Shown one piece after another: positions 13,275 to 46,367 of a stretch of 55,532 nucleotides of DNA (within the stretch, counting starts at the first letter, position 1; each line of letters opens with the position of its first letter). The position numbers were made by a program, and so were the translations under genes. Location: contig WELA01003463.1 of NCBI GenBank assembly GCA_009602735.1, positions 34,720 through 90,251 on the forward strand, in the 5' to 3' direction. The notes under the pieces were generated by a model, which had not been told where the DNA came from, did not search any database, and was given only the letters and a program-made list of their open reading frames with translations. This DNA is from Mesotaenium endlicherianum. Taxonomy: Eukaryota.

Positions 13275-13277
13275 AGC

Positions 13278-22613: not shown

Positions 22614-22627
22614 AAGTTCTCAGAAGT
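22614..22627 (-). promoter_or_regulatory. Putative self-priming primer-binding site of element A
   Basis: ACTTCTGAGAACTT (- strand) abuts the 5' Y repeat and is complementary to a 14-mer within Y (12387-12400 exact; 29258-29271 one mismatch). Confidence 0.7.
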
Positions 22628-22772
22628 AGGACAGAAGTGTCTTACTTCCACACAGGCTTTTGCCCAAGTTGAGGGTTTACAGAATGAACAAGTTTTGTGG
22701 TTTGCAAAACTCACATCTAAGCAGCATAACAGGCAATGCCAATTTCAGAGAAAATCGCCCTTCAAGGCTTTC

Positions 22773-23267
22773 TGTAGTGAAATAGATAGATAAAGTACTT
22801 AGTAAAATAGAATTCTTTATCTATTCAAGACAAGGATCTTTGAACACAAGTGGTAGCTTCTTGAAAGAGAGATGGCTTCTTGATAGTTACTATATTTCTG
22901 GAATGTGGCAAGTACAAGAGTGATTCTGGAAAGTCTTTCTATGTTCTAGCTCTTGTTTATATACTTGTTACATAAGTGATTTTTAGGAAGGTGTATGTTG
23001 ATGTGTTGGCACCCAACACATCCCAAAACTTGCCACCTCTTTCTAGAATAATGTACACATGTCCTTTTGACCTAAAAATGGCACATTTGATTTTTGCCAC
23101 ATGGAGTTCTTCTAGGTCTTTCCTCTAACTTCGAAAATGCCTTGGAAGGTTCAAAGGACATGAATCAAGTCACTAGAGTACCTATTCACACTTGAATCCA
23201 CACCATTCTACTCCAAATATATTTGTGAACATTAAAATATATGCAAACTAAAACTCAAATCACTACA
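22773..23267 (-). repeat. 3' LTR of chromovirus C (495 bp); PPT GGGGGGATAA at 23268-23277 on the - strand
   Basis: Near-identical to 28531-29067; TG...CA termini with a 7-bp inverted repeat. Confidence 0.95.
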
Positions 23268-24032
23268 TTATCCCCCCGACAGAAAAAGCGACGTCTCGGC
23301 GCGTCAAGTAAGATCTTACACATGTGGAGCAGACTAGTCAACAGCTTCAAGTCAGATGCCACACATGTGAAGAGGATTAGTCCAAGGCGCCAAGTCAGGT
23401 GCTACACATGTAAGGTGGACTAGGCAAGGTCGTGGGTGGTGTGACCTTATTGGCTAGCCTACTCCTTGATAAAGAAAATTGTATAAGTTGGCCAGAATCT
23501 GCCACAAATTCAAACATTCATAGCGTCCACAAAATTGCTTCAAATCTAAAAATTTGAGTGCCAGACGGACCGCGTCAAAGAATTTTACCGGGTCACCAAA
23601 TTTGAGAGCATTCAAATTCCTGGAGTGTCGTTGAGAGCTGAGAGAGTAGGCACTCCTCCAAGTCTGTGCAGAAACTTCTGAATATCATAAGTCCTTCTAT
23701 ACTTCTCCAAATGCTGCAAACTAAGTCTCAAACTGGGTGCTGTAAGATGTTTTACCAGAGTCTTGAGTTTCAGAGCATTCCAATTTCAAGGGAGGGCAGA
23801 ATGTCAGAAGGCATATTCTGCCCTAACAATGCCAGCAGCCTGACCCCCTTCTACTTAGAGCATCATATCTCTCTCACCAGTGCTTCAAATTCAACAAACT
23901 TGGACTCTAAACGACCGGCTACTCATGGACTACAGCCAAGTAAAATTTCAGGATTTATTATGCAAAGACCTATCACCAGTAGCAGTTTTAGTTTTCCATT
24001 CAGAAACTGCAAAAAGAGAAGAGTGTCTAATG

Positions 24033-27000: not shown

Positions 27001-27090
27001 TTCGCATAGTAATACCGTGCTTGGTGGCAAAATCTGCAGCAATGAAGTTGCCTTGAGCTCCGCTATCCACCAAGATGTGGACCTTCTAAG
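24033..27090 (-). pseudogene. Chromovirus C pol (protease, RT, integrase, chromodomain), disrupted; RNase H hidden by gap 25480-25967
   Basis: [67 protein letters not shown] (catalytic Asp apparently changed to Asn), QSDGQTER, YLGPFKI; chromodomain EYKVEDIV..YLIKWKGYPDSENSWV. In-frame stops at 24994 and 25246. Confidence 0.9.
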
Positions 27091-27214
27091 TTCTCTCCTC
27101 CAAGGTTACCTCTCAAACTCATTGGGGCTGGGACGTCGTCTTCAACGGGGGTCTCCACCTCACTTGTCTTGATGCCTTCTCGTGAAGTGGGTCTTGGGGT
27201 GGTAGGCTCCAGGC

Positions 27215-28493
27215 CTACCGGCGCTGTCCATTTTTTGACAACTTTTTGGGGCATGAGAGTGCACGATGGCCCTTTTCCTTGCAATAAAAGCATAGTCCAG
27301 CCGTCATGAGAGCTTCTTTTTCAGCCAGGGAGAGTCTTGCTTTCACTCCTTGCTGGTTTCCTGCATCATAAGTGTCATTGGAGGGTCTTCCACTCTTCCG
27401 GGCAGCCGCGGGGTCCCTTTTAAGAACTCCAATTTCCATGGGTGTGGGTCCAGATTCGGATGTGGAAGGGGTTGCATACACCCGCGTCGCCGGTACCCGT
27501 GAAGATGAAGGCACGGAGTGCTTGAAATCCAAGGTATCCACCTTGGGCCACTTCAATGAACTTTGAGAAGTCCGTCAAGTCGCGTAATTCCACTTCCTTT
27601 GCCACCTTGGGTTTGAGGCCAAAGATGTAGCGGTCAATCTTCTCCTTGAGAGACATGTTGGGGATCTCAAGAGTGAGGGCGTGAAATCTGGATGCATACT
27701 CTTGAACGGACGTCGTTTGCTTGAGATGGTGGAGCTTTCCTTGTTCAATCTTCTCCGCATTGATGGGCATGAATTGCTTTTTGAGGGCCTCACGAAAATC
27801 TGCCCATCTTGCATATGATGGTGGGGGCTCTTGGCCGAGCATGGGGTGCGCCATAGCTTGATATATAGCCGCTTGATAGTTACGCCACCATGATGTTGCT
27901 GCTCCTCTAAGTAAGGTAACGGCAAAGGGAACGTAGTCCTCCTCGGGTACTTCAAGGAATGCGAGGTACGTCTCCACTTGGTAGAGCCATAAATTCAGGT
28001 TGGCACCTTTCCCGGGGTTGAAAGTGTCGGGTTTGCCGGGCTTGATGAGTTTCCTTGCTCTCGTTGGCTCTTGTGGAGGCGCTTGAGCCGGGGCTGGATT
28101 TTGAGCATTGCTCGCAATAGGGGCAACCATGGCAGCCATAGCTTCTCTTGACGCTTGCACGGTTGCTTCATAGGTGGCCAAGCCCACTTGGTTGTGGACG
28201 GTCATTAGGAAGGCTGCCCACTCATTTGCGGGAACTCCTTGTGGTGGGGTCAACTTTGCTATAGCGGCTGCCACGGGATTTGACGGTGCTCCTCCTTGTG
28301 GTGCTTCTTGTTGTTGCAGATTTCCTTGAGTAGGCTCTCCCATCGGCGCTGGAGGAGGGTGTGCTCCTCCTTGTGGTGCTTCTTGTTGTTGCAGATTTTC
28401 TTGAGTGGGCTCTCCCATCGGCGCTGGAGGAGGGTGTCTTGGAGAGGAAGGGCTTCCTTCGAAAGCTTGCTGTTGGTCTTGAGGATCGGCCAT
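27215..28493 (-). pseudogene. Chromovirus C gag (one frameshift near 27556), with CCHC knuckle
   Basis: KPGKPDTF..WLYQVETY..LLRGAATSWW..LKQTTSVQEYASRF..YIFGLKP; CFYCKEKGHRALSC. A 75-bp tandem duplication (HPPPAPMGEPTQxNLQQQEAPQGGA x2) lies near the N-terminus. Confidence 0.88.
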
Positions 28494-28517
28494 CTTCTTG
28501 TGCTACCAAAGTGCCTA

Positions 28518-28529
28518 GATTTGATACCA
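28518..28529 (-). promoter_or_regulatory. tRNA-Met(i)-type primer-binding site of chromovirus C
   Basis: TGGTATCAAATC one base after the 5' LTR; the first 8 nt match the canonical TGGTATCAGAGC. Confidence 0.75.
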
Positions 28530-28530
28530 T

Positions 28531-29067
28531 TGTAGTGAAACAGATAGATAAAGTACTTAGTAAAACAGAATACTCTATTTATTCAAGACAAGGATCTTTG
28601 AATACAAGTGGTAGCTTCTTGAAAGAGAGATGGCTTCTTGATAGTTAATATATTTCTGGAATTTGGCAAGTACAAGAGTGATTCTGGAATGTCTTTCTAT
28701 GTTCTAGCTCTTGTTTATATACTTGTTACATAAGTAATTTCTAGGAAGGTGTATGTTGATGTGTTGGCACCCAACACATCCCAAAACTTGCCACCTCTTT
28801 CTAGAATAATGTACACATGTCCTTTTGACCTAAAAATGGCACATCTGACTTTTGCCACATGGAGTTCTTCTAGGTCTTTCCTCTAACTTCGAAAATGCCT
28901 NGTCTAGGTCTTTCCATTAACTTCGAAAATGCCTTGGAAGGTTCAAAGGACATGAACCAAGTCACTAGAGTACCTATTCACACTTGAATCCACACAATAC
29001 TACTCCGAATGTATTTGAAAACATTAAAATATATGCAAACTAATATATTATAACTCAAATCACTACA
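28531..29067 (-). repeat. 5' LTR of chromovirus C
   Basis: Matches 22773-23267 apart from substitutions, a short indel near the end and a duplication around the single N at 28901. Confidence 0.95.
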
Positions 29068-31184
29068 CTTTCGCTTAACTTCCACAAGTCACAGCTTACA
29101 AAACTCTGAAACTGCACATCTATGCTGGCCTGGTCGGAGCTCTTCACTCAACACCGCGCCTTAACAGCTCTTCACTGCTCTGCTGGGCTCACTCAGTTCT
29201 TCACTGACAGCTTTACTTGTTAAGATTACTCTTGTTATCAGCAATTCGACAATTGAGACTTTTGAGAACTTAGAAACTAACACAGTACTCACCATTTTAA
29301 GTGTCCCTCGCACGTTTGTGGCATTTGACCCAAATCTGTGCTAATCTCGTAACATATTCTATTCTGCAGCTCTCTACTTTCTACCAGCGAGATCCTCTCT
29401 CGGGAACTCTTGAGGTCTAACCTATGATACCCTTAGGAAGAAATCTTCCAACGTCGCTAGAAGCGTGGCGTCTCGGTTCTTCTATGGCCTTGGGAACTCC
29501 TTCTTCTTCGTGCTCCCTCCGCTTCTTCAACTTCCTTTGACAACAATGCGAGCAAGAATGAGGCAGCTACAGGCAGGACTCGTGCCTTTCACAGGCACCA
29601 CACATTATCCTCTCTTGAGAATGCCAGTGCTTAGTCACAGTGCTTAGCTTGCATGCCATCCTTACCTAGCAGCTCTCACACAGCTTAGGAGTTGTCATTC
29701 CGCATGCATGCATGCCTTGGGATTGTCGCGCGTGACTGGTTAGCCCTTCAGCTGACAATCATGCCTATGTGGCCGACTGACAGCGTTTAGAATGAACGCT
29801 CAAGCCGTGACTAGTCACCTGAGGGTCTTGGCCGAGGTGGCACACAACGCTTTTGCAACATCCCTGCTGTACTTGGCTTAGATAGCCAATTGATAAGTAC
29901 CTTTCCGGGCACTAGCTGGTTCCACTCCTAGCCTTTCGGCTGACTACTCCGTCCAAATCCCCATCCATCCCTGGGTGTGGGTTTGACGTGTCGTGACCAC
30001 TTTGACAGTGATAACGACTTTGACATGACCGCTGACTGAGATCACTCGGTCCTTTGGTCGGTTAGTCAACGCTGACTTCCCGTACCTGGGCGGCCGTGGC
30101 TTGCGCTGTACGTGCAGTACCGCCAAACGGGTAGCAGTCGCGATAGCGGTTGCACTTCGTGGACCAAACCTGATTTTTGGAAATAGGAGTACATCACTCT
30201 GAGGCTGTGCAAGTGGTGAAGCGGCCTAAATTGCTCAAACAATTTGCAAAACAAAAGTTTGGTCCCGCCAACGGTTATAAAAGTCGTCGACGGGCTTTGT
30301 CAATCCAATATGTATGTTAAAAGTTAACCACGTTTGAGAACGCGCATCCAACAGCTTTCATGAAATTTGTTTGTGATGTATTTTAGTGAAGGTTAGAATT
30401 AAAAGGGTGCAATTTCTTCAACAATTTGAGTGACCAATTTATCCCCCCCACAATCTGCCCCATGCAATAAATTAACAGTATTGACATCGAATAAACTAAT
30501 GATGTATGGGATAACCAAAAGTTTTGAATCTAAATTTTTTGAATTGCTGGTTGCACGTTCGAAGCAATTGCTAGAAAGAGCAATAAGAACCATAAGAGCA
30601 ATGAGAACCACATAAGATTACTTGGCAACATTCATTGATAATAACGAAGTAAATGCTTGGATATCCAAACGCAATTTCGTAGGGCTGGTGACCCATACGT
30701 ATGTATTGTTGAGAATTTTGATATTAGATGATGCAACAGTGCACCAACAATATGATTAATGAGGAAAATTGCTACTTTGTATGTCCTGTTGCATTTTGAC
30801 ATCACTGTTATGAGGTTGTAAAGTTTTAACCTTTTCTAGAATGGCAATTGTCAAGCTTCTCCCCATGAAGATGGAAACTTCTGTCATAAACTTTTAACAA
30901 GTAAGGTGACGATACCTAGACAAGCATCTCTCTTGAGGTGTTAGATGCGCAAAAACTTGAAAATTAGGTTTGCCTAACCTCAAAATGCGTACAAATTGGT
31001 ACCTGAGAAGAGAAGGCAGGGGTTCAGCAAGAGAGATGGCAGGGCATGGGGGGGAAACTCTCTTCTAGAATCCGGGTGAAATAGCGCCCAAAATTCAAAG
31101 TTTTTAATTAGCGCCCTGAAATCAAAACAACAGAATTAGTACAGTGAATTAGTGACCTTTAATCAGACAAATATGTACTAATAG

Positions 31185-31487
31185 TGTCGTGCCTAACAGT
31201 GTCGGTCCCTTGGCACGTGCGTAGCCTTCCAGCACGCGTGCCTTCGGCCTGGTTGATGTGTCGGTGGCCCTCCTCACGTGTGGCAGACATGGTTGATTGA
31301 CCTTTGCACGTGTGTCGATGACAAGCCTTACCAGGGTTAACCCATCCCTGGGTTCCTGAACTTGCACCATGCAGCCTTGACCAACACTCAGGGTGACGTT
31401 CTCTGTCACCCGGCTCTCACCGTCTGCTTATCCTAAGACTTTAGCAGAAAATTTAAAAATACTTGCCTTGCCTTAATTCCTCTTACA
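31185..31487 (-). repeat. Element B repeat X, terminal copy (303 bp)
   Basis: Near-identical to 36013-36315. Confidence 0.93.
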
Positions 31488-31823
31488 AGGACGGAAGTCT
31501 CTTACTTCCACATAGGCTTTATGCCTTAAGGTTCTTGGGTTCACAGGTGAGCAAATTGTAGTTTGCAGAAATCACACTCTAAGCAGCTTGACATGCAACG
31601 TCAGATTCAAAGAAAATCGCCCTTCAGGCTTTTCGCTTAACTTCCACAAGTCAGCTTACAAAACTCTGAAACTTCGTCTATGCCTGGGTCAAGCTCTTCA
31701 CTGCCAGGCTGGGCTCACTCAGTTCTTCACTGAGAGCTTTATCTGTCAATACTACTCTCTCTCTTCGAGATGCGAATGCGACTTCTGAGAAGTTGGAAAT
31801 CAACACACAACTCACCATTTTAA

Positions 31824-34800
31824 CACTAGATTTACTGCCTATAGGACCAAAACCGACACCACAATAGCCTATCTTTGAATGCTCATACTAAAATGAGTGC
31901 TTATGTGGTACATAAGAGCCATATATATACTGAATCTACTTTGAGTAAGCAATCTGGCAATGTACTTTTTCCAATTTTTCCGGGATATTTTAGTGTACGT
32001 TTTTGTACTTCAAGGAAAACACACGTGTGAGGTCCCATAAGTACATTTCTTCTCAGCACAATATCCGGAAAGGTACAACTTATTTCTAGATCCTGATTTT
32101 TTCCAGCATTTATCCTGATGTAAGGAGGACAGTGCACTTTACAGATATGCAATTTATTTAGTATCCTAGCTGCTACACCAGCCCAATGTTTGGGACCCAA
32201 ATTGACACCAAGTTTTTTGGTCATTGGTCCCATAAGGAATCTAGGAAATGCATCATGCAGATTTATTGTTTGGTGCATAACTTTTACAATTCTTGATGGA
32301 AATTATTGAAACAAGTTCAGGCATGCTTAGAATACCTTACACAAGCACTATGAAACATGAAAACACCAAAAATATGTAAAGCAAAAATTATGAGTCTTGT
32401 CATGTATGGCTCCATGGCCGACGCGTCGGAAATCTGGTATATGGCAGATGGTGTGAGGTAAAAAAATATTAGTCTTAGAGTTATGCACCTTTCATCAATG
32501 CTACTGTTTAGGAGCACCAGTGGGCAACCTCTTCCTACCACAATCTAGATGCTCTATGTTTCTGGTAGTGTGAAAAATTTCAAAGCAAGGAGTGGGATGT
32601 AAGGCAACATTACAAGGTATACACATGAATTGGCACCTCTTCTTCCGTGCTGCAGCTCCTAAGTCAAAGTACTTAGCACTACACACCACGTAGCTTGTCC
32701 TTTCTCCTTTCTTCACCTTGTCAAGAAAGTGCCTCCCAGTCCACCTTTGCTCTTCAGCAGCTCCTGCTGCACTTGACCTGGTCTGCCTGTCGCGAGGATG
32801 TACCCACTCCGACATCTCCCTCACTAGTTGCAACATGAACAAGTATCTGTCAGCACCAGGGTGGGCCAGCTCATACAATATGTATGCATTAGCAATGGCA
32901 CCATCAAATAAGCCCCAATACAGGCGGTGCCACCACTTCCTAGCTACTTGCTCAGTCTCCACAGAGTAGTTGTCTCTCAAGCATAACTTGTCAAATTGAT
33001 CGACCGCGTCTTTGTACATGTTATAGTGCTTCACAATCTCTGGTGCAGGTATAGTCTTAGTCTCTCCTCCCTTCTGTCTCCTCTCAACCTCAACTACAGT
33101 AAGACCTTGACAGTTAGACAAAAGATACGCAGGCTTCTTGTCTTGCCAAACTACAGCTACGTGTTCAGGCCATTCTGACACGAGCGCTGTGAATGACCCT
33201 TGCTCCGCCTCTTTCTCTTCTGCAGGTATGTCTAAGACCAGCTGCTTAGTAGGATAGTGCATTCTATTTACAACTGTGCCTGTTGCTCCATGGCCAAGCT
33301 CTGACAGTGCTCTCACAAGTACAGGACTTGTGAAGCCTCTATCTAATACAAAGCTGTAAGTCTGACCCTCTGGCAAAGTGCTGACCATCTCCATAATAAC
33401 AGTGGTATTTTTGCCAGGTCTCTTGACCTTGTCAAATACTACAAAGTCCCAGCAGTAATATGTGACACTATCAACCAGTGTGAACAACTCAATGCCAAAT
33501 TTGTGAGGCTTCTTAGGACAATACACCCGGACTGGATACTGTCTATTTCCAGTTGGAATAAGTCTCTCATCAATTGTCATGTGCACACCTGGATTATAGT
33601 GCTCCTTGAATGCTCTTTAGAGTAGATCTATGAAGGGTTGACACTACCAGAGCTTATACTCTCCAGACTTAGGAGGAAATACATCTCTGCCTGCATTAGA
33701 AATAATATGCATGTTTGCTTTTATCTGGACCCACCTATCTCTAGACATGTATTTGCCATAGGCAGGAAACTTTACAGGACCAAAATTGTCATTCTTCCAG
33801 TACATGGTGTACCTAGGCAAGGAATTCAATGCCATAGCAATACACAAGCCATGCCACATGATGAGCTCACTAGTGGTCAGCTGGTTCCATTGCTTTGCAC
33901 CTTCACTATGTGCATATGCATTGGTAACAGAAACCATGGAGTCATACCAGTCTACACCAATGAGAAGGCTCAAAACAGCAAAAGGGCTGAAGTTGTGAAA
34001 GTGCCTTGTGCTCACTCTGGCCAGGCCTGTGGCCAGAGTGCTGACAGGCTTCACCAGCCAAGGTGGAACTTCACCTCTAGCAGCAGGCCTCCAGGAGTAC
34101 TCCTCTCTGTTGGCAGGCTCCTCAACTTCTTCTTCTTCAGCAGCAGCAGGCACCATTGGCTCTCCTTCAGACTCCAGCTCCGTGTCTGAGCTGTACTCCT
34201 CTTCATCTGAGTGCCTGTTCTTCTTCTTGCTGTAGCCCCTCTTTGCCCTCCTCTTAGCAGTCTCCCTTGCCACTACCACCCTGTTCCTTCTCTCTTCCCT
34301 GTTAGCAGGCACAGACATGTCTGGTCCTGTCTGTTTTGATGGTCTCCCTCTCTTTCGTGTTGACTCTATCGGTTCTAAGCCTGTTTTCGACTCTTCCTCT
34401 GTGTCTATTGTGTCTGCTACTGGTGTGGGGGTGTCTTTCGGTGGTGTGGGAGTGTCTTCTGGTGGTGTGGGAGTGTCTTCAGGTTTGGGGGGGGTGTTTA
34501 CAATGCTAGGAGTAACTTCAATCACATGAGAAGCAGGAAGCTGTGAAAGTGGGTCCGAAGAGGCCTCAACTCTAACAACTCCCTCATATGGGCAAAACCA
34601 ACGAAATTCGGGGATAGAAGGCATGTATTGTAGTATTTGGCTGCGTCCCCATGTTTTGTACTCTCCATCGTAGCCAAAATAGATCTTAAACTTGGTTTCT
34701 TTGGTCTTATGCACCTCTTCCTCTAATATTCCGACCAAAAAAAACTCTTTGTAATGCTTTCCAAACTCTTGTGCTGCCCAAGTTTCACCCCAGATCTTAC

Positions 34801-35165
34801 TAGGTGTCAGTATCTTAGTGCCTACAGCTACCGGGGGGCCTGTAGACGAAGAAGCAATGTCAGCCATGGCTTCTATAGCATGCAAAGCAAAAGAAATGAC
34901 AGACAGGAAGAGGCCTGTTCGAATGTCAAAATCGAAACAGAAGGTGACCTCTTCGTGGCCGGCAAACTTACATAACTTCGTCATATATTGGCCGTTATGG
35001 CTAAAACTAATTTGCTGGAGGGGTTTGAGTTATGACACATCCAATGAGCCTATTTTTAGACAATTCTGATTAAAAAAAAAGTAGGCTAAGGGGGTGTAGA
35101 ATTTTGCCTAGTTATGGGACATAAATTGGTTCAGAACCAAAATAGGACCCACAGTATAGCTAGTG
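31824..35165 (-). mobile_element. piggyBac-superfamily DNA transposon (3342 bp)
   Basis: TTAA TSD at 31820-31823 and 35166-35169 (a single TTAA in the uninterrupted Y copy near 45523). Imperfect 14-bp TIRs CACTAGATTTACTG / CACTAGCTATACTG. Transposase ORF inside. Confidence 0.93.
32501..34867 (-). pseudogene. piggyBac transposase, one reading frame with two premature stops (33644-33646, 33617-33619)
   Basis: MSRDRWVQIK, TIDERLIP (D1), PKKPHKFGI, LDRGFTS (D2), YNMYKDAVDQFD (D3), KWWHRLYW, C-terminal Cys/His domain CQFMCIPCNVALHPTPCFEIFH. The start Met is a best guess. Confidence 0.9.
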
Positions 35166-36012
35166 TTAAGGCTGCTTCACACACACACTTGTGGCGTTTG
35201 GCTGAGTCCGTGCTAATCTCCTAGCAGATTCTATTCTCCAGTTCTCCTTCTTCAACCGTGAAATTCCCTCTTGGGAACTCCTACAATCCTAACTTATCTA
35301 CGATACACAGAAGAATCTTCAGCGTCGTCAGAAGCGTGGGGCTTTGGCCCTCCAGTGGCCTTGGGAACTCCTTCTTCTCTCTCCTTCTGCTTCTTGGCAA
35401 AGGTGCATGAGAGTGAATGACATGTCTCAGGCAAGATTCGTGCCTTTGGCAGGCACCACACAGCGTCATCTTTCGAGAATGCCGTGCTTAGTCACACAAC
35501 TTAGTTGCATGTCGCCTCTGCCTAGCCATGCTCAACTCAAACTCGTAGTCACTCAGCATGCATGCACACCTTGTGACTGTCGCGCGTGGCTGCTTAGCTT
35601 CTCAACTGGCAGTCACGCCTAATTGGCTCATGGCTAAGAATTCCTGAGCGGCGTGCAAGCAAATGCCACTTGCTCAAGTTTTCCCAACGGGGCGGCCGTA
35701 ACCTATCTTGGCATTGCAGCCATGACCTGGCTTAATCTGCCAGTCACACAGTACCTGACCTGGTACTTGCTGGGCGGCTCATTGCTGATCCCCAGCTCCT
35801 AGCCTCGCGGCTGTCTTGTCAAAACCTCCCCCATCCCTGGGTGTGGGGCACACTGACATTGACCCCTTGCCAGTGGTCTTGACGCCGCCATAACCGCTGA
35901 CTGCGATGTAATCAGTCAAGTGGTCGGTGAGTCAATGTTGACTTTCAGCACTAGGTGGCCGTAGCTTGCGCTGCGCGTGCGACACCGTCAAACGGATAAT
36001 AGTCGCGACAGC

Positions 36013-36315
36013 TGTCGTGCCTAACAGTGTTGATCCCTTGGCACGTGCGTAGCCTTCCAGCACGCGTGCCTTCGGCCTGGTTGATGTGTCTGTGGCCCTC
36101 CTCACGTGTGGCATACATGGTTGATCGACCTTTGCACGTATGTCGGTGACAAGCCTTACCAGGGTTAACCCATCCCTGGGTTCCTGAACTTGCACCATGC
36201 AGCCTTGACCATCACTCAAGGTGACGTTCTCTGTCACCCGGCTCTCACCATCTGCTTATCCTAAGACTTTAGCAAAAAATTTAAAAATACTTGCCTTGCC
36301 TTAATTCCTCTTACA
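36013..36315 (-). repeat. Element B repeat X, internal copy directly after the PPT
   Basis: Matches 31185-31487; separated from Y by GC (36011-36012). Confidence 0.93.
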
Positions 36316-36327
36316 CCCCTCCCTTTC
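36316..36327 (-). promoter_or_regulatory. Polypurine tract of element B
   Basis: GAAAGGGAGGGG on the - strand, followed by TGTAAG. Confidence 0.85.
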
Positions 36328-38089
36328 AGCTGAGGCGTCCCTGCCTTTCCTGTTGAAAGCTATTATTTTCCAGCCCTGCGGCTAGGAGTTTTAGGAAGGC
36401 ATCAGGACATTCCCATCGTCTTGCCATAGTTTCTTCCTCGCCAATGCAGAAAGTGTGCCAACGGGCACCACATTTATCGCAAGTTACCATTGCTTCCTGA
36501 TTGTCCAGCACTTTGCAGCTGGCACAAGGCGTGGCCGGCACCAATTCCTCGGGCACAACCTTAACTGTGGGATCAATATTCGGCAAATGGCATAGCGAGC
36601 AATTCTGCACGTGGTCTCTTATGGTTTTACCATCAGAACCCTCCAGTTCTAACACACCATTGTCAAACGCATGTTTCACGCGCAAGATCACTGCACCTGA
36701 ACTGGTGTCGATGGTGGTCTTGGTCTGGCGCTTGCGGTAGACAAAGTCTCCTTCTTGAATCTGCGTCATCTGCAGGCGGTAGCTCCCGTCTCGCGTCCTG
36801 GCGTAACGTTGCGTATCTCTTTTCTGTGCAATTTTCAGATTGTATAGTGCAGCCAGTATCATGCGCTCAAATAACGCCTTACGGCGCACCATCACTTTTA
36901 ACAGTTCATCAGGGCTGTCCAGGTCTTTCACCTGTTCAATCTCCTGCTTGATGCTGCTGGGCATTACTGGACTTCTGCCAAACAGTATCTGATATGGCGA
37001 GTAATTTGCCAAGGCAGCCTGCTTGCTAAATCTGTAACCCGTAACCAGCCATGGCAGGGCTAGATCCCAGTCACGCTTGTCATGCTCAAGGCAAAACTTG
37101 CGCAAAGCAGACTTAATGGTTTGCACCATCCTTTCTGCCAGACCATCTGCTTGCGGATGATCTCTAGACGTAGTGCGATGATCGATGAAGCATCTGTCCA
37201 AGAGTTTCTGAAAAGACCCTTGGAACTCAGACCCTTGGTCTGTCAGCACTTCTGCTGGAGCTCCATGACGCACAATCACACCATTGAGGAACGCTTCCGC
37301 GGTCCCTAGACTCTCCTTAGCAGTCAGAGGGACAACCTCTATCCACTTAGAGAAATGCTCAATCATTACCATGATATACTTGTTACCTCGCTTAGACAGC
37401 GGTAGCTCACCTGCAAGATCGCAGCTCCAACGGTAGCCTAGGCCCATGATTGGCAAAGGTTGCAAGTGTGGATGTTGCTGTGTAAAACCAGCCTTGACGC
37501 AATCACAGCTTTGGCAGGCCTTGATCACATCTTCACACTGCTGCTTCATGCCCCTCCACCAGTAAGACAGCTCCAAAAGACTATATGTCTTCTCGACACC
37601 ATAGTGTCCAGTGTTCTCGTGCATTTCTTGCACAAGGGCTCGTCTCCTGATGGGTTCTGGCACTAACTTCTCCTGACCAGTTTCTTCAATTTTGAAGAGG
37701 TTGTTACATTTCCAGCAAAACTTTTTAGCTCGATGGCTTACCTGGTCCTTCTCCTTCACTAATAGTCCTTCCAAGTGAGTTCCCGTCTTCAGCCAGTGCA
37801 TAGTAGCTTGATCTTTCCAGATCTCTGGACTGAACAGGGGTAGAGGCTCAGCTTCACCTGATGCTACTATTCTAGCCATTTCGGCTAGGCACGCCACCAA
37901 CTCTGCTGGGCTGCTTGGGTCTTTGTCCTCTCGAGCTCCTGTTCTGTCGTCTGAAGATGGGTCTGGGTTCCTGCTGAGTCCATCGGCGTCGTTGTTGAGC
38001 ACTCCAGCTCTGTGCACCACCGTCATTTGGTACTCTTGCAGCTTAAGAGCCCAGCGAGCCAACTTACCAGTGAGGTCTCCATTCTTCAT
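36326..38089 (-). CDS. Element B: end of RNase H, DDE integrase and C-terminal PHD finger
   Basis: LARWALKLQEY..ADGLSR; HENTGHYG..CQSC zinc-binding motif; WSCDLAG, LTDQGSEF, DGLAERM; CASC..CDKC..HTFC..WECPD (last Cys lost by a frameshift relative to A). Confidence 0.9.
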   Translation of the reverse strand: MKNGDLTGKLARWALKLQEYQMTVVHRAGVLNNDADGLSRNPDPSSDDRTGAREDKDPSSPAELVACLAEMARIVASGEAEPLPLFSPEIWKDQATMHWLKTGTHLEGLLVKEKDQVSHRAKKFCWKCNNLFKIEETGQEKLVPEPIRRRALVQEMHENTGHYGVEKTYSLLELSYWWRGMKQQCEDVIKACQSCDCVKAGFTQQHPHLQPLPIMGLGYRWSCDLAGELPLSKRGNKYIMVMIEHFSKWIEVVPLTAKESLGTAEAFLNGVIVRHGAPAEVLTDQGSEFQGSFQKLLDRCFIDHRTTSRDHPQADGLAERMVQTIKSALRKFCLEHDKRDWDLALPWLVTGYRFSKQAALANYSPYQILFGRSPVMPSSIKQEIEQVKDLDSPDELLKVMVRRKALFERMILAALYNLKIAQKRDTQRYARTRDGSYRLQMTQIQEGDFVYRKRQTKTTIDTSSGAVILRVKHAFDNGVLELEGSDGKTIRDHVQNCSLCHLPNIDPTVKVVPEELVPATPCASCKVLDNQEAMVTCDKCGARWHTFCIGEEETMARRWECPDAFLKLLAAGLENNSFQQERQGRLS

Positions 38090-38137
38090 CAGCCATAGTA
38101 ATGGTGAGTAATCCGTGATCAGTGTGAAGGGTCTTCC

Positions 38138-39157
38138 CTACAGATACTCTCTGAAGTGTGTGACCGCCCAAACCACTGCCAGCAGCTCTCCTTCATAGGA
38201 CGAGTAGTTGCTCTCCGCTCGATTGTTAGAGCGTGAGGCATAGGCAATGACATACTCCTCTCTAGGGCTTGTGGCCTGAGTGAGTACTGCGCCAATTCCC
38301 ACACGACTCCAGTCAGTGTGCAGATTGAACGGTTTGGAGTAGTCAGGCGTTCGCAAGACTGGGGCTGTTACCAGCCGCTCCTTAAGCTCGTTCATGGCTT
38401 TCTCCTGAGCTTCTGTCCACACAAAAGGTACATCCTTTTTCAGGAGTTCCGTCAAGGGTTTAGCAATTCTGCTATAACCCTTCACAAACTTACGATAGTA
38501 TCCGCTTAGCTCTAACAGAGCTTTCAGCTTAGACACATTCGCAGGTGCAGGTATCTTGTAAATAGCCTCAGTCTTCACAGCCTGAGGGGACATAGCATTG
38601 TTCCCAATCTCATGTCCTAGGTAAGGCACGTGTGCCTCAAAGGCACACGTCCATTGCCAAAGTTCCTTTTGAGCCCAGAAAGCAGTCTTACCTCGATCTT
38701 TTGTTTTCACAGGGATCTGGTTGAAGCCTTGGCGCAGATCGATAATGCTGAACACCTTTCCGGTGGTGGCAATTGCAAAGATCCTTTCCGGCGTAGGCAT
38801 CACATAGCTATCTGGCTCCGTGTAGAGATTCAGTCGCCTGTAATCTCCACACATACGAGTGGCAGTGTAATTGCCGGCCTTGTCCTTTTTAGCGGCTACT
38901 ACTGTAGGAGCCCCATGTACTGAGGTAGATTTTTCAATCATGCGGAGCTTATGCAGCTCTTCACAAGTTTTCTCCACACAGTCCCATTCTGTCTGACTGA
39001 GCTTATGCGGCCCTAGTCTGACTGGGTTATCAGTAGTTAGTGTGATCTCACACACACTGGCAGTGGTTCTACCAATCTCCTCCTGAGTGAAGGCAAATAC
39101 CTTGCGGTGTTTCTTCAGCAACCTTTCTACTTGTGCTCTCTGCTGGGCTGAGACCAT
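38138..39157 (-). pseudogene. Element B RT/RNase H with the YxDD core deleted
   Basis: RMCGDYRRLN, IDLRQGFNQI, KTAFW, then jumps to FEAHVPYLGH; about 65 aa present in A are missing. RNase H LHTDWS..IAYASR..ELLAVVW. Confidence 0.9.
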
Positions 39158-39220
39158 TTTCCCAATGGCAAAAGTCTCAGTTTCAGGTTGCTTCTCCCCA
39201 ACAAAGGCATCCAGTAGTTG

Positions 39221-42200
39221 CTACTCCTTAGGTGCAGGTGGGGGCTTCCCGCCCTCATCCTGGCCCTCAGGCTTTTCTGCCTGATTTTGGCTCTCAGGCT
39301 TTTCTGCCTGATTCTTAGGAGGTGGGGTAGCAGGCTTTGCAGCTTGCTCCTCCGTTGCCATAAGTTCGGCAGCCTGTTTCTTAGGCTTTTTACCTTTCCC
39401 AATGACGCGTCGCCTCTCCTGCGGTGAGGGGTATGTCAGGCGCCTCCGGATGGGCTGCCTCAAAAACATTTCCTCGTCGACTGCAGTCCAACTGGTCCCG
39501 GTTCCTCCTTCTTCACGTGGCCGAGGTTGGTTTGCCATTGGAAAACCTGCGGGATCTGTCCTAGGGCTGATCGCCCAGCCCCATTCTTGCTCAATAATAG
39601 CCATGCGGGCGACGGTCGTGCCATACTCCTCCCTTGCGGGTGGTGTGACCATCCATGCCTGCGCCAATGTTTGCGGCCTTTGAGGTGCCGCTAGTTGTGC
39701 GAGAAAGGCATCATCTGCTGCGGTCAAGCGGCTGATGGTGTTTCTCAGATCCATCAGTTCCCATCCTGGGATTGCAGGTATCATGGGAGCAGGCTCCTCC
39801 GACCTCTGTATCCTAAGATGTGATAGTTGCAACAAGGGCGTGTTCATGCCTGGCGGCACACTAATGCCCAATGCCATTGCCCTGCGAACCAAATCGTCCT
39901 CTCCCTCTCTCTGCAGAATATCCCGCAGAGGCGGAGGAGGTGGGGCTGTGGTTCCTCGCGGAATGCCCTCTCTCTCTCTGAGCCTTCCCCTTATGTTTGA
40001 AATATCGCTCTAGCATCCTCCTAAAAGATGCGTTACCCTCACGGGCCACCTTCCTTGGTCTGCTTGCGCGACTTTTGGGCTTTCCTTGTGCTGTCTCCAC
40101 TTTAGCAGTGCAGGCAGTCACCTCCTGCCATTGCGGTGGTTGTGCGGTTGACTTGGGTTCTGCTACTGGAAGACTGGCAAAAGGAGAACTGGATGTTGGC
40201 GACCTTAATTCTTCATAAAGGTCTGCCGGGCTTGGCCCCATCAGGTGGTCAGCCACCCAGTCGTCTGTCCTCAGCTCCTGTAAGTCAAGCAGATCCAACT
40301 CTGGCGTGGGAAAACGTGGAATCTCTCCCCTAATGTCCCCTTCATTGTTGAGTGATGGAGACTCCAACTCCGAGAGGCCTTCCATCTCTGCATCCTCTTC
40401 CTCCTCCGGCTTCTCTATTCCAGGAGGCGGTAATTCTTCATCCCCTCCTGTGTTGAGCCTCGCCATGTTGATGATAGCTGACTGTAGAACGAGAGCTGCT
40501 TTCGCCACTTTTTCTTCCTTGAGTCGAGGGGCGTCTGCTTCCAGCAACTGCGCCATGATTTGCCTGGTGATCGACTCAGCTGTGCTGCCAACTATGTCTT
40601 GTGGTTGCCCTTTGGCCTCTGGCCCTGGGCTCATCAGAGCAAGTGTGGCGGGCAATCTCTTGGCCGTCGCCTTCTTGTGTTCTTCAAAAATCACCTCCAG
40701 GCAAATGGTCTTTCCAGACCCTCCAGAATTTCCTGAATTCTGACTGCATTCTTCGGCCCATTCGCCAATATTGCACTGGCGTTCTTCATATTTTGATGTT
40801 ACTGCGTCTGGGGATGGGCTCCCAAAGACTTGGTCTGGAGCCATGTTTCGTAACTCAGAACTGGTACATTCTTCCCATTCCGGCATCCTCCCCAATACTT
40901 GGCTGGAGCGTTCTGCAGATGCTGGGACCTCCTGTGATTTGCTGACTGCAGCGCTCACCAAAGGGTTTGCTGCACCAGTTGCCTGGTCTTCCATGGTTAC
41001 GTCTCCTCGCAGCCTCCGCAGCTCTCTTTCCAGAGGGTCGTGTAGAGTCGCCATCCGATTGTCAATTCGCGTCAATAAGTCTTGACACCTGGTCAGCTCC
41101 ACCACTCTGGTTTCTCTGAGTGTTTCATCTTGGTCAGCCTCAGCTGCGTCTCTTTCAACAGCATATTCTTTTTGTCGCTGATACGCTTCCCTGATAGCTC
41201 TTTGATCAGAGGTTGGCACCACATGGACTCCAATCGTTACCGGCCTCGGCCTGGGCATAGGCTTGTCAGAGAACGTCATCTGTTGCCAAGTCATAATCGT
41301 CTCTACCAACCATGTCATGGAGTGATGCCCAATCATATTGTCGAATATCTTCCCAGCGTTGTCCTGTCCCACCATTGCAACAATTTCTTGTGCAATGGAG
41401 TTGGGTACCCCCAGGCACCTTCCCTTCTCTTCAGCTGTCGGCTCTCTCCACTGAGCTTCTCTGTTGTGCACATCTTTGACCATTCCTGGTCCTCCATTCA
41501 CGAAAGCGCGTGATCCTGGGTATGCTGTGAAGGTGGGCAGCACCACCCTCGGCCGGCCTGGCTCGTTGACGACGTACTGTGGGTAGGAATCCCTCCTGAT
41601 CACTGGCTTGGTTTCCACCATCAGTGCTTCTCCCACAGATACTGCCGTTGGCGTGCGCCGCGTAATCTCCTCCATCTTCCTCAGGATTTCAATGGACATG
41701 CCGTTGGTCCAGAATAGTCTGGCCCGGTGTGAGAGTCCTCCGTGCCTGGCGTCGTTGATCAATACATGATGACCCAGGGTGGAGTCAAAGACGAGCCATT
41801 GATCTCCTGGCTTCATCTGGTTGTAATCCATCCCTAGATGTACATTCTCAATCACAAACACTGGTGGGTAGAGATGCTGGCGTTCCCGCAGCATACTGAT
41901 GATCTTCACCATCCTTCCCCAGTGTTGTGCTCGCGGGTCATTGAATCCCCTCCTGTTCCCAACTTGCGAGAAAGGTTGACAAGGGAATCCCGCAAAAATC
42001 CAGTCAATCGTGTAACCATACAGGTCCTCAAACTTCACATCGAGAATGTTTTCTCCAGCAAGACGCACCACACTAGTGGGCACCAATGCCTTGAAATGGT
42101 ACATTTGCCGCATCTGACTCATGACCTCCTCAAATGCCTTAAAAACATTCTCATCATTGTCCACATACAGCACTTTGGATACCTGGATACCTCGCTGAAT

Positions 42201-45035
42201 CGGTGCGATGGTTCCAGTACCAAGTCCGGCGAACAATTCCAGCACTACTACTCCTCTCCTGCAAAAAGGATCTTCCATCCTCACAATGCCTTGCGGCAAT
42301 GGGTCTACTCCAGGCATCAAATTGGCAGCAGTCTTAACTGGATAAGGAACTGGCAGCAGCTCTTGCGGGCTACGGTCCCTGTTACTCACAGCTTCTAGTT
42401 GCTCCATAATCCAAGGTTGCCAAACCAAGGGAGTCGGCATGTTGATGCTGGTGTAGATCTTCTCTTCGCGTTGCATGATGAGGTCATAATGGTCTGGATA
42501 CTGGTCATTCACATAGCAGTCTAGCAGTCCGTAGTTTGCTTCTCCCGAGCAAACCATTTTTACAGGAATTTCTCCTGTCGGCTGCCGATCTGTCGACTGG
42601 TAAGTCACCCTCTGCTTCCGCAGGTCGATGACCATACCCAGGGGAATCAGAGCTTCTGTCCCCAATAGAACATCATAGTTTTCTGCCTCTGTCACCGTAC
42701 ACTCTATGAACAGTGACGCTTCCTCAGGTTTCCCCAAGTTTACTGTGATTTCCACAGGCTTGCGGGTGATTCCACAAGACTTTGAAATCTGCCCAGATGC
42801 AGTCCTCAACTGGAAAGGACTTTCTTTCAGGTCCCTTGCCGTCAATCCCAGAGCTTTCACAGCTCGCTTTCCCAAGATTACTGGCTGTGCGCCAGTGTCC
42901 AATAGGATATTGGGAGCGGCCCAGTTGTTAAACGTCAAAACTCTATCCTTGTTCTGCACTCTCACAGTGCTGAAATTAGTAGGCAGCGAAGCGCTGTTCG
43001 CGCCTTCCTCAGCTAGGTCCAGCTGCTGTCCGGCTTCCTCAATCGTGAAAGGATATGTAAGACGCAGATCAGCGAGTGAAAGACAAGGAATGTGCTGAAT
43101 CCGGTGTTCCACCAGAGCCTTCAGCTTTTCCAGCGAAAAACTAAATGTCTTGCGTGGCCCAGGCTTGGCTTGTCGTAGCTGCGCAATCTCGTTCTCATCG
43201 AGAGTGATCCGAAAGGTCTGAGGAAGCTTCCCAGCATTCCTTGGAACCAGACGATCATGATCTGCGCGCTCCGCAGCCGTTGCAGCCACGGCCTTCTCAG
43301 GCGTCAGCTTCTCGCCTTTGCAGACGGTCTTTTCGGCCACATCTGCATCATAATAGACATTAGGCACATTTAGTCTTGCAAATTGAGCTTTCAACTCTGC
43401 AATTTCTGCACTCATAGCATCATACTTCTGATTACCCTTCCGGTTACCAGAGTTATCTCTCTCCCGTTTCTTACCCTCATCCGCCTCTTTCGTGGCAGCA
43501 TTAGCCCATGGTGGTTTCAGATTTGGGTTCTTGGACCAACACTCATCTTCTGAGTGTCCCTTTTTACTGCAATGTGCGCATACCTGCGCCTTGCTAGCAG
43601 ACAATTGCTTAGCATCCGAGTACGGACAATCTCTCTTCTGATGTCCTGATTTCCCGCAATTCCAACAGCCCTCTGCTGTCTCAGCAGTGTTGGCGTGCTT
43701 AGCAAACCTATTGAAAGACCCGCTCTTTTTCTTAAATTGAAAATTAGAGCTATTGGCCTTGGGCTGAAAGGATTCCTCCCTTCTCTCAGGAGCCATAAGC
43801 GTCCTAGAAGCCTCCTTGTACCAGACTTTACCTTCCTCAACATTCCGTGCTATTTCAGCAGCCTCGTCGATGTTCCAGTCGATTCCGCGTTTTGCAGATA
43901 GGTGCGGCCTGACCTCCCAATCTGTATCTTTACCCGGACACAATAAGAATTTGTCAGCCACAATCCTAGGCTCATAGATTCCTGCCTTCTTGGCAAGGTC
44001 TACCAATCTGGATTTGACCTCCATCACTGTCTCGTTCTTCTGACGGACAAAATGCACATAGCGGTGCACTTTAAGACTGCGATCCTCTGGGAATGTTGCT
44101 TCAAGCAACTTGAAGAAACGACGCAGACAGTGCTCAGAGTCTAACTGGTCATCCCCAGCCTCCATATCCCTACGGCAACTAGCCAACGCTTGCGCATGGC
44201 TTGCTTCCGTGGTGACACTATCACCATGCTGCCCTGTAAAAGGTGCAGCTCTGCGTGTTACTCGTTCCTGAGCATTAGCAATCTTTTCAGACAATTCTGC
44301 ACACACTTTTCGCAATTCTGCGACAGATCCAGCATCATCATCTCGAGTAGCCGCTCGCTGCTGACCCTCGGTGAGTTGCTTCATGGCATCTGTTAATTCT
44401 TGTGTTAGTGCAGCTAAGTTTACGCTCTCAACAGGTGCAGCAGGTATCGCTCTTCCTGATGACAAAGCGGACAGGCGGGCTTTCGCAGCCTCTTTCTGGA
44501 TTTTCAAATCCCTCGCCTTCTTTTGCTCGTCAAACGCCCATTCCTGGGTAAGGTTCTCATTCTTCCGAAATTGGCGATACAGGAACAAGGCATCCTTGTC
44601 CAAGTACTGAACCAAGCTTATAAAAGCGACTGACTGAGTGTAAGAAGAATCCTTTCGGATTTTCTCAAAGAAGTCAGCCTAATAGATCTCATCAAACTCT
44701 TCGAAAGTTAGACTATTTCCACTAGTTCGTCCACTAAAACACTTTGTAGACAGCTTGAACTTATCCTTATCATCACCAGTCATTTCGAGTGGTGACCAAG
44801 ACTCACTATCTTTATCCCACACGTCGTGCTCTCTGCCCGAATTGGGTACAAAAGCTCGCGTGTTATACGGATTCTCACCGTTCGTGGCAGTATGGCGAGA
44901 CTCGTCTCTCGACGGTTGCTCACTCCACAGGTTATCCGTGTGCTCTGATGTCTCACTTTCTCGTGGACTCTGGCTTGAATCAGAACCTTTTGCAGGCTCC
45001 ACAGGGTAGTAGAGTCTTCCATTCCTCAACTGCAT
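39221..45035 (-). pseudogene. Element B polyprotein N-terminal part: Gag (2 CCHC), aspartic protease, C5-DNMT, uncharacterised region; includes the 1584-aa open frame 39861-44615
   Basis: MQLRNGR start (45035); CWNCGKSGHQKRDC and CAHCSKKGHSEDEC; LLDTGA..DVLLG; DNMT motifs. Breaks near 44679 and 39880. Confidence 0.9.
41285..42260 (-). other. C5 cytosine DNA methyltransferase domain in frame within the element B polyprotein
   Basis: VLELFAGLGTG (I), LYVD (II), IFAGFPCQPFS (IV, catalytic PC), FVIENV (VI), HRARLFW (VIII), REPTAEEKGRCLG (IX-like), IFDNMI (X; GN in A). Confidence 0.92.
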
Positions 45036-45158: not shown

Positions 45159-46367
45159 AGGACAAAAGTCTCTTACTTCCACATAGGCTTTATGCCTTAA
45201 GGTTCTTGGGTTCACAGATGAGCAAATTGTAGTTTGCAGAAATCACACGCTAAGCAGCTTGACATGCAACGTCAGATTCAGAGAAAATTGCCCTTCAGGC
45301 TTTTCGCTTAACTCCCACAAGTCAGCTTACAAAACTCTGAAACTTCGTCTATGCTGGCCTGGGTCAAGCTCTTCACTTAACACCGCGTCTTAACAGCTCT
45401 TCACTGCCAGGCTGGGCTCACTCAGTTCTTCACTGAGAGCTTTATCTGTCAATACTACTCTCTCTTTTCGAGATGCGAATGCGACTTCTGAGAACTTGGA
45501 AATCAACACACAACTCACCATTTTAAGGCTGCTTCACACACACACTTGTGGCGTTCGGCTGACTCCGTGCTAATCTCCTAGCAGATTCTATTCTGCAGTT
45601 CTCCTTCTTCAACCGTGAGATTCCCTCTTGGGAACTCCTACAATGCTAACTTATCTATGATACACAGAAGAATCTTTAGCGTCCTCAGAAGCGTGGGGCT
45701 TTGGCCCTCCAATGGCCTTGGGAACTCCTTCTTCTCTTTCCTTCTGCTTCTTGGCAAAGGTGCGTGAGAGTGAATGACATGTCTCAGGCAAGATTCGTGC
45801 CTTTCGCAGGCACCACACAGCGTCATCTTTCGAGAATGCCGTGCTTAGTCACACAACTTAGCTGCATGTCGCCTCTGCCTAGCCATGCTCAACTCAAACT
45901 CGTAGTCACTCAGCATGCATGCACACCTTGTGACTGTCGCGCGTGGCTGCTTAGCTTCTCAGCTGGCAGTCACGCCTAATTAGCTCATGGCTAAGAATTC
46001 CTGAGCGGCGTGCAAGCAAATGCCACTTGCTCAAGTTTTCCCAATCGGGCGGCCATAACCTTTCTTGGCGTTGCAGCCATGACCTGGCTTAATCTGCCAG
46101 TCACACCGTACCTGACCTGGTACTTGCTGGGCGGCTCATTGCTGATCCTCAGCTCCTAGCCTCGCGGCTGTCTTGTCAAAACCTCCCCCATACCTGGGTG
46201 TGGGGCACACTGACGTTGACCCCTTGCCAGTGGTCTTGACGCCGCCATAACCGCTGACTGCGATGTAATCAGTCAAGTGGTCGGTGAGTCAATGTTGGCT
46301 TTCAGCACTAGGTGGCCGTAGCTTGCGCTGCACGTGCGACACCGTCAAACGGATAATAGTCGCGACA
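45159..46367 (-). repeat. Element B repeat Y, 5' copy (1209 bp, uninterrupted)
   Basis: Matches the split copy at 31488-36010; no X copy lies next to it. Confidence 0.93.

What the first reader, a model, noticed from the sequence alone, without database searches (positions are those of the whole stretch)
41285..42260. Cytosine-5 DNA methyltransferase embedded in frame between protease and RT
Seen: motifs I, IV (PC), VI (ENV), VIII (RxR) and X occur in order inside the 1584-aa ORF of B and, frameshifted, in A (18750-19730). The motifs are conserved despite divergence elsewhere. Known (from memory, not checked): DNMT-carrying retrotransposons have been reported in charophytes and dinoflagellates, so the domain alone is probably not new. 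Inference: a packaged DNMT could methylate the cDNA or circle, and the CpG-rich att site and CACGTG boxes are candidate substrates that might influence which of the two sites is cut.
Basis: partly seen in the sequence, partly recalled or inferred. Interest (0 to 1): 0.7.

Follow-up and report, generated by a model that had tools for sequence, protein, structure and literature searches.

The report
Gypsy retrotransposon's DNMT3 before leaky stop
Two decayed copies of a jumping gene carry a DNMT3-like DNA-methylating domain, a kind of element already described in a green alga, and here a conserved stop codon that ribosomes likely read through separates that domain from the copying enzymes, so the domain would be made in excess along with the particle shell.

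Summary
The domain is real: Pfam DNA_methylase 4e-15, a confident model closest to DNMT3A/B, and dN/dS 0.17 between the two copies, like Gag and RT. It belongs to a Ty3/Gypsy element with A-coding-B-A-B repeats, the design published for KnitGypsy-Dnmt3 of Klebsormidium, so the domain itself is known. The title needs one correction: the DNMT is in frame with Gag-protease, but a TAG CAA CTA lies before RT. It is the only stop shared by both copies (1 of 19 stop positions), matches the TMV readthrough context CARYYA, shows no listed variant in laid contigs, and recurs as TAG CAG TTA in an uninterrupted distant relative. Most likely the element makes Gag-PR-DNMT abundantly and RT-RH-IN-PHD by readthrough (inferred, not measured). 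This lineage's DNMT is unusually divergent, and the Klebsormidium domain showed no activity in yeast.

The parts
41274..42263 (-). DNMT3-like C5 cytosine methyltransferase domain, copy B (no stop or frameshift inside; Asp at the motif X glycine position)
   Evidence: PF00145 4e-15; model pLDDT 92.4; DNMT3B/3A best structural matches; 203 bits against an HMM of relatives only
18741..19735 (-). Same domain in copy A, broken by two stops and a 1-nt gap
39224..45035 (-). ORF1 of copy B as a homologous reading frame: Gag with two CCHC knuckles, protease, DNMT, about 680-codon low-conservation linker; broken in B at 44681 (stop) and about 39968 (indel). The start ATG at 45035 is inferred
39215..39223 (-). 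TAG CAA CTA: in-frame stop in the CARYYA readthrough context, between ORF1 and RT (copy B)
   Evidence: only shared stop of A and B; only TAGCARYYA on the coding strand of either copy; no variant listed in laid contigs
16595..16603 (-). TAG CAA CTA in copy A
36326..39220 (-). ORF2 of copy B: RT (201-nt deletion that removes the YIDD motif), RNase H (private stop at 38140), H2C2 + rve integrase, PHD finger
45159..46367 (-). Repeat A1 (5' end of copy B, begins TGTCG, after the 4-bp target duplication CTAT)
36013..36315 (-). Repeat B1 of copy B; the B1|A2 junction at about 36012 reads CA-GC-TG
31488..36010 (-). Repeat A2 of copy B, interrupted at 31824-35165 by a TTAA-flanked DDE_Tnp_1_7 transposon
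31185..31487 (-). Repeat B2 (3' end of copy B, ends CGACA, followed by CTAT)
11836..30145 (-). Whole copy A (B2 11836-12056, A2 12057-13275, B1 13278-13497, coding about 13511-22500, A1 split by a nested ordinary Gypsy element; 4-bp target duplication CCGC)

Best explanation
This is a DNMT3-like cytosine methyltransferase domain carried by a Ty3/Gypsy retrotransposon with split direct repeats (the KnitGypsy-Dnmt3 design); it lies in the Gag-protease reading frame, ahead of a conserved TAG-CARYYA stop that is likely read through at low frequency to make RT, RNase H and integrase, so the domain would be packaged in excess and would likely methylate the element's own new cDNA. Shown: domain identity, fold, purifying selection, element anatomy, and position and conservation of the stop. 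Inferred from the TMV and MuLV precedent: readthrough, and an excess of ORF1 over ORF2 products (about 0.75). Inferred from DNMT3 homology and intact catalytic motifs: methyl transfer to cDNA, probably at CG (about 0.5). Both copies in the window are dead.
For: Identity: PF00145. A profile of 72 family sequences ranks DNMT3A at 91.5 bits, DNMT3B about 83, DRM-type 44-54, M.HhaI 46. The AlphaFold model (pLDDT 92.4) has DNMT3A/3B/3C as the top nine Foldseek hits and VIA Z 26.7 (DNMT3B, rmsd 2.9, 274 aligned) and 25.7 (DNMT3A), with M.MpeI close at 24.8. Selection: dN/dS A vs B is 0.17 (bootstrap 0.12-0.24) over 325 codons, against 1.26 and 1.81 in the shifted frames; Gag 0.13, PR 0.10, RT 0.12, IN 0.10. 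Catalytic Cys, Glu-Asn, both motif VIII Arg, Trp and Asn match columns conserved in 70-71 of 71 relatives. Anatomy: A-coding-B-A-B repeats, TG...CA ends, 4-bp target duplications; both repeat pairs also seen in 6 of 24 metagenome loci examined. Stop: of 2843 aligned codon pairs, 16 stops are A-only, 2 B-only and 1 shared, the TAG CAA CTA. The frame is constrained on both sides of it (0.30 before, 0.12 after). Among 95 contigs of run X1 and one contig each of X5 and X6, variants of 2% or more were listed at 39224, 39227, 39230, 39234 and 39237 but none at 39175-39223. Locus L001 (48% identical in IN) has two uninterrupted ORFs of 1369 and 1047 codons joined in frame by TAG CAG TTA at the same place. 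A third family has TAG CAA CCY there in 8 of 8 copies, the only one of 419 codon columns with a stop in all 7 copies counted (next highest 3 of 7). CARYYA is the TMV-type signal (PMC4132726, PMC2194720; passages).
Against: No readthrough, protein or activity was measured. The Klebsormidium domain gave no de novo methylation in yeast, which the authors call inconclusive. This lineage's DNMT departs from 18 (B) and 19 (A) of 45 family-conserved columns, 16 shared, whereas L001 departs at 2 and seven of eight same-architecture relatives at 2-5 (P0168 at 17). Its mean identity to relatives is 0.30 against 0.35-0.42 for the others, while its integrase is ordinary. B has Asp at the motif X Gly. The stop is patchy: P0063, P0064, P0068, P0070, P0076, P0094, P0110, P0116, P0161, L023 and the less decayed copies of the L010 family read through this region without a stop. 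The third family's context (CAA CCY) misses the last base of CARYYA. In one search, differences near contig ends are not listed, so the blank is informative only for roughly 39205-39240. CpG depletion is no stronger than in neighbouring DNA. An in-frame gag stop need not mean readthrough: the Tca2 junction failed a readthrough assay in yeast.
Confidence: 0.6

Rival explanations
1. The domain is a constrained but non-catalytic or re-specialised module in this lineage (DNA or SAM binding, particle structure, or a changed target sequence), not a working CG methyltransferase.
For: 16 family-conserved positions changed in both copies; long branch, 1.56 against a median end branch of 0.58; KnitGypsy domain inactive in yeast; no extra CpG loss.
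Against: Motifs I, IV (PC), VI (ENV), VIII (RxR) and IX (ExxR..G.P in B) are kept. Several changes (FPCQPFS, Asn before motif VIII, Gly-Asn of motif X in A) move towards the bacterial consensus as seen in the HaeIII alignment or as recalled. The fold is complete.
Confidence: 0.25
2. The shared TAG is not read through: pol comes from another route (splicing, internal promoter, reinitiation), or the TAG is an old nonsense mutation in a non-autonomous subfamily.
For: Many relatives lack the stop. TAG arises readily from CAG/TGG in these elements. Tca2 precedent for a non-standard bypass. An ATG lies 21 codons behind the stop in B.
Against: RT, RH and IN stay under strong selection in both copies. 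The exact CARYYA context occurs in two lineages about 1.2 changes per site apart in RT. In L001 no Met occurs in the first 80 codons behind the stop, well into RT. No indel is listed at the site in contigs.
Confidence: 0.2
3. One reading: the DNMT methylates the CpG-rich B|A junction or CACGTG boxes of a circular intermediate and so decides which of two att-like sites integrase cuts.
For: The junction is a CpG-containing palindrome, CGACAGCTGTCG, in B. A CACGACA-NN-TGTC junction recurs in L001, L025 and L033.
Against: No evidence links methylation to cutting. CACGTG is common throughout the window. The central NN differs between families. No sequence preference beyond CG was found for the active retrotransposon Dnmt3s.
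Confidence: 0.1

Closest known systems
KnitGypsy-Dnmt3 of Klebsormidium nitens (de Mendoza et al. 2018, PMC5890265; parts 1-4 of 7 of the text read, peer-review file and Data 1 searched; figures and the main supplement not seen)
   Same: Gypsy domain set, Dnmt3-related unrearranged DNMT inside the coding region, DIRS-like A-coding-B-A-B repeats, purifying selection on the DNMT, streptophyte host.
   Different: There the DNMT is described as being in the same ORF as RT and RNase H; here a conserved TAG-CARYYA separates it from RT. The DNMT-RT spacer is 2.2-2.3 kb here against 0.4-0.5 kb in 35 of 36 related loci. The DNMT is far more divergent. I could not compare the Klebsormidium DNMT sequence directly. 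The one K. nitens protein found (P0166, RT to PHD, no DNMT in that ORF) lies in the same PHD-Gypsy group but is not the sister.
SymbioDIRS-Dnmt3 of Symbiodinium (same paper)
   Same: Dnmt3 domain in a retrotransposon with A-coding-B-A-B repeats; de novo CG methylation shown in yeast.
   Different: Tyrosine recombinase DIRS element, independent capture; here a DDE integrase with TG...CA ends and 4-bp target duplications.
UAG-CARYYA readthrough of tobacco mosaic virus; in-frame stops of MuLV gag-pol, SIRE1 pol-env and Tca2 (PMC4132726, PMC2194720; passages read)
   Same: In-frame amber stop followed by CARYYA (TMV); an in-frame stop used to set the ratio of upstream to downstream products.
   Different: Here the stop lies behind protease and DNMT, directly before RT, not between gag and protease; no 3' structure stood out.
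EpiLTRs and DAM-LTRs (bioRxiv 10.64898/2026.05.21.726589; passages and section 8 read)
   Same: Gypsy-like elements carrying DNA methyltransferases, some between RT and integrase.
   Different: DNMT4-related or Dam enzymes with chromodomains; the authors state these are distinct from streptophyte Gypsy-DNMT3.

Membership tests
C5 cytosine DNA methyltransferase (PF00145) | Profile match above cut-off; motifs I, IV, VI, VIII, IX, X in canonical order | tested here: met
   56.5 bits vs 22; motif positions. B has Asp at the motif X Gly. TIGR00675 scores 45.9, below its 100.65 cut-off for bacterial Dcm.
C5 cytosine DNA methyltransferase (PF00145) | SAM-dependent methylation of cytosine | not testable with these tools
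   No assay possible.
Dnmt3 clade | Closer to DNMT3A/B than to DNMT1, DNMT2, DNMT5, DRM or bacterial enzymes | tested here: met
   Family profile and Foldseek rank DNMT3 first; VIA puts DNMT3B/3A 1-2 Z above M.MpeI. The single sequence alone hit HaeIII first.
Dnmt3 clade | Placement inside Dnmt3 in a tree with reference DNMT3/DRM sequences | not tested
Ty3/Gypsy retrotransposon | Gag, PR, RT, RH, IN in that order with DDE integrase | tested here: met
Ty3/Gypsy retrotransposon | TG...CA termini and short target-site duplication | tested here: met
   B: TGTCG...CGACA with CTAT on both sides; A: CCGC on both sides, 5' end reads TA
Ty3/Gypsy retrotransposon | Two complete identical LTRs flanking the coding region | tested here: not met
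   Repeats are split A...B-A-B, as published for KnitGypsy-Dnmt3
Streptophyte Gypsy-Dnmt3 (KnitGypsy-Dnmt3 type) | Gypsy domains plus Dnmt3-related DNMT under purifying selection | tested here: met
Streptophyte Gypsy-Dnmt3 (KnitGypsy-Dnmt3 type) | DIRS-like A-coding-B-A-B repeats | tested here: met
Streptophyte Gypsy-Dnmt3 (KnitGypsy-Dnmt3 type) | DNMT in the same open frame as RT and RNase H | tested here: not met
   Same phase, but separated by a conserved TAG; hence filed as a variant of the kind, not a plain member
Streptophyte Gypsy-Dnmt3 (KnitGypsy-Dnmt3 type) | Common descent with the K. nitens elements | tested here: inconclusive
   K. nitens P0166 falls in the same PHD-Gypsy group by RT/RH (97 SH-aLRT), but its DNMT was not retrieved
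TMV-type programmed readthrough site | In-frame UAG followed by CARYYA with coding constraint on both sides | tested here: met
   L001
TMV-type programmed readthrough site | Measured readthrough above background | not testable with these tools
   Needs a reporter assay or proteomics

The most novel reading that the evidence does not exclude
A wide, mostly undescribed green-plant clade of PHD-finger Gypsy elements with split repeats captured a DNMT3 once and has since tuned its dose. Some lineages, this one included, put it in the Gag-protease frame ahead of a TMV-type leaky stop, loading each particle with many methyltransferases that mark the new cDNA before integration. Others fuse it openly to RT, and a chlorophyte branch moved it between RNase H and integrase.
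Probability: 0.4. Interest if true: 0.7.

Novelty: new variant of a known kind. Interest (0 to 1): 0.5.

Why it matters
What a retrotransposon does with its own DNA methyltransferase has been open since 2018. The published argument for action in cis rests on the DNMT sharing an ORF with RT. If some lineages instead make it at Gag level through a leaky stop, the enzyme would be an abundant particle component or could act on host DNA in trans. The family would then offer natural variants (open fusion, leaky stop, relocated domain) to compare. It also widens the known range of Gypsy-DNMT3 from one alga to streptophyte and chlorophyte records.

Tried and rejected
No own genome was held, so copies could not be counted. 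Word-indexed searches with the domain gave only bacterial-type Dcm proteins of 26-47% local identity (5 hits; 54 hits). The Atlas returned phage/bacterial DNA methylase clusters. A single-sequence fold failed (pLDDT 37). Viral contigs: 0 loci. Expression: no RNA holder was listed, and one polyA run gave 6 laid reads of 6.9 million, none 95% alike or better; this is no evidence either way. A stimulatory RNA structure behind the TAG: z -3.3 (B) and -3.1 (L001) when the stop is included, but with windows starting behind CARYYA B ranks 28 of 47, A 13 of 25 and L001 3 of 41; not supported. A programmed frameshift at about 39968 was considered and rejected: A and contigs of X1, X5 and X6 lack the extra 4 nt. 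TAG reassigned as a sense codon was rejected: L001 has one TAG in 2417 codons. Single origin of the stop: AU test p 0.045, borderline rejection; the L064 row in the tree was taken from a neighbouring element by mistake and was corrected. MAFFT's gapped alignment of motif X was set aside for the ungapped HMM alignment. Pfam found nothing in the linker. Literature searches found no report of readthrough in Gypsy-DNMT3 elements or of the chlorophyte RH-DNMT3-IN form; subscription journals are mostly not covered, PMC1315901 (SIRE1) was not held, and the main supplement and figures of PMC5890265, which show the KnitGypsy domain order, could not be seen.
Full report
Observation. The window holds two copies of one retroelement on the minus strand, A (11836-30145) and B (31185-46367), each interrupted by another mobile element. 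In B the frame 44678-39864 encodes two CCHC knuckles, an aspartic protease and a DNA_methylase domain (PF00145, E 4e-15); RT, RNase H, an H2C2/rve integrase and a PHD finger follow. The methyltransferase motifs lie in canonical order at 42263-41274; A has the domain at 19735-18741 with two stops and a 1-nt gap. So the domain is real. The '1584-aa ORF' is not the native unit: its start follows a stop found only in B (44681), and its end follows a 4-nt indel in an AG run near 39968 that A and contigs of runs X1, X5 and X6 do not have. B's RT lacks 201 nt including YIDD, and A has 16 private stops; both copies are dead.

What the domain is. A single-sequence search of solved structures gave weak hits led by M.HaeIII, and word-indexed searches found only bacterial-type enzymes. 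A full HMMER scan gave 849 hits; of the 150 listed, 141 were new, and 87 of those also hold PR, RT, RH or IN. A profile of 72 such sequences ranks DNMT3A first (91.5 bits), then DNMT3B, DRM-type (44-54) and M.HhaI (46). With that alignment AlphaFold gives pLDDT 92.4. Foldseek ranks DNMT3A/B/C in the first nine places, and VIA gives Z 26.7 for DNMT3B (rmsd 2.9, 274 aligned), 25.7 for DNMT3A and 24.8 for M.MpeI. dN/dS between A and B is 0.17 (0.12-0.24) over 325 codons, close to Gag, PR, RT and IN (0.10-0.15) and unlike the shifted frames. The catalytic Cys, Glu-Asn and the two motif VIII arginines are kept. Against this, the domain departs from 18-19 of 45 family-conserved columns, 16 of them in both copies, where most relatives depart at 1-5. 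B alone has Asp at the motif X glycine, and the lineage has a long DNMT branch but an ordinary integrase.

The element. Repeats are arranged A1-coding-B1-A2-B2, the ends read TG...CA, and each copy has a 4-bp target duplication. De Mendoza et al. 2018 (PMC5890265; parts 1-4 of 7 read; supplements searched) describe this combination for KnitGypsy-Dnmt3: Gypsy domains, Dnmt3 in Pol, DIRS-like repeats, Ka/Ks under 0.2, and no detectable activity in yeast (called inconclusive). The host was not identified by any search; a TBL-type flanking gene points to a streptophyte.

The family is much wider. An integrase-PHD search returned 328 long proteins; of the best 120, 79 (phmmer) or 85 (family HMM) hold this DNMT. 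In one search, 12 have it before RT, 61 between RNase H and integrase, 6 lack RT/RH in the record, and 41 showed none in that ORF, many of them starting just before RT. B groups, with moderate support (89), with before-RT forms and a Coleochaete protein. The after-RH forms are a separate starred branch with named chlorophyte records, and their DNMTs nest among the before-RT ones, which fits one capture and a later move. Of 80 metagenome loci, 36 have DNMT followed by RT, and 6 of 24 examined show both repeat pairs. Two earlier AI notes report such elements in mosses; I did not test the host of my loci.

The shared stop. Along 2843 aligned codons, A and B share exactly one stop, TAG at 39223-39221 (A 16603), just ahead of the RT N-terminus. 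It is followed by CAA CTA, the only TAGCARYYA on the coding strand of either copy, and the frame is under constraint before and after it. In 95 laid contigs of X1 and single contigs of X5 and X6, the codons just upstream vary but no variant of 2% or more is listed across the stop and its context; differences near contig ends are filtered, so this speaks only for about 39205-39240. L001, a distant relative with no other interruption, has Gag-PR-DNMT (1369 codons) and RT-RH-IN-PHD (1047) joined in frame by TAG CAG TTA. A third family has TAG CAA CCY at this place in 8 of 8 copies, the only all-stop column of 419. CARYYA is the readthrough signal of TMV and other plant viruses (PMC4132726, PMC2194720; passages). 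Many relatives have no stop here, and holding the stop-bearing rows together is borderline rejected (p-AU 0.045), so the signal was gained more than once or lost repeatedly. No 3' RNA structure stood out.

Mechanism. Most likely a transcript running from A1 is translated mainly into Gag-PR-DNMT-linker and, by occasional readthrough, into the full polyprotein. The protease would release the DNMT inside the particle, where it would be in excess over RT and integrase and would methylate the new cDNA, probably at CG by analogy with DNMT3A and SymbioDIRS-Dnmt3. Anatomy, homology, selection and the stop are shown; readthrough (about 0.75) and methyl transfer (about 0.5) are inferred. The last has no support: CACGTG and CpG patterns are not special to the element.

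Novelty. Eight literature searches found Gypsy-DNMT3 only for streptophytes (PMC5890265; passages of PMC6338049, PMC12344493 and bioRxiv 10.64898/2026.05.21.726589). They found no mention of readthrough or of the chlorophyte RH-DNMT3-IN form. The library lacks most subscription journals, and the figures and main supplement of the 2018 paper, which show its domain order, were not seen. Verdict: a new variant of a known kind; interest 0.5.

Noticed in passing
window 31824-35165 (-): A DDE_Tnp_1_7 transposon with TTAA on both sides and CACTAG...CTAGTG ends sits in repeat A2 of copy B; these features recall piggyBac (recalled, not tested). CpG o/e 0.26, far lower than its surroundings.
   Followed up: partly
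window 22773-29067 (-): An ordinary Gypsy element (Retrotrans_gag, protease, RT, SH3_Tf2-1, about 500-bp direct repeats at 22773-23267 and 28531-29067) is nested in repeat A1 of copy A.
   Followed up: no
window 47281-52395 (+): Pieces of a PMR5N + PC-esterase (TBL-type) gene flank copy B, pointing to a streptophyte host.
   Followed up: no
window A vs B, step near 39400: Synonymous divergence is 0.65-1.09 in ORF1 regions but 0.33-0.55 in ORF2 regions, suggesting recombination between subfamilies near the stop.
   Followed up: no
window 36000-36020 and 13265-13285; L001:8658, L025:11979, L033:11980: The B1|A2 junction reads CACGACA-NN-TGTC (three letters between in A), like two element ends joined by two bases; with TG...CA termini and 4-bp duplications this suggests integrase cuts such a junction.
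   Followed up: partly
P0079-P0170 (61 of 120 proteins), L060, L066, L080: A branch that includes records named Monoraphidium neglectum and Chromochloris (Chrzof1) carries the same DNMT between RNase H and integrase; these DNMTs form a starred clade nested among the before-RT forms. P0085, P0104 (Pleodorina) and P0157 (Pseudoscourfieldia) hold shortened, weakly scoring versions.
   Followed up: partly
P0175, P0177, P0179: Sister Gypsy elements with PHD finger carry a Dam methylase (PF05869) instead of a DNMT, probably the DAM-LTRs of the 2026 preprint.
   Followed up: no
L066:4857-4865: In an after-RH element a single in-frame TAG (context GCA CAC, not CARYYA) joins ORFs of 1163 and 2182 codons.
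   Followed up: no
P0090, P0095, L060: Some after-RH elements also carry a G-patch domain.
   Followed up: no
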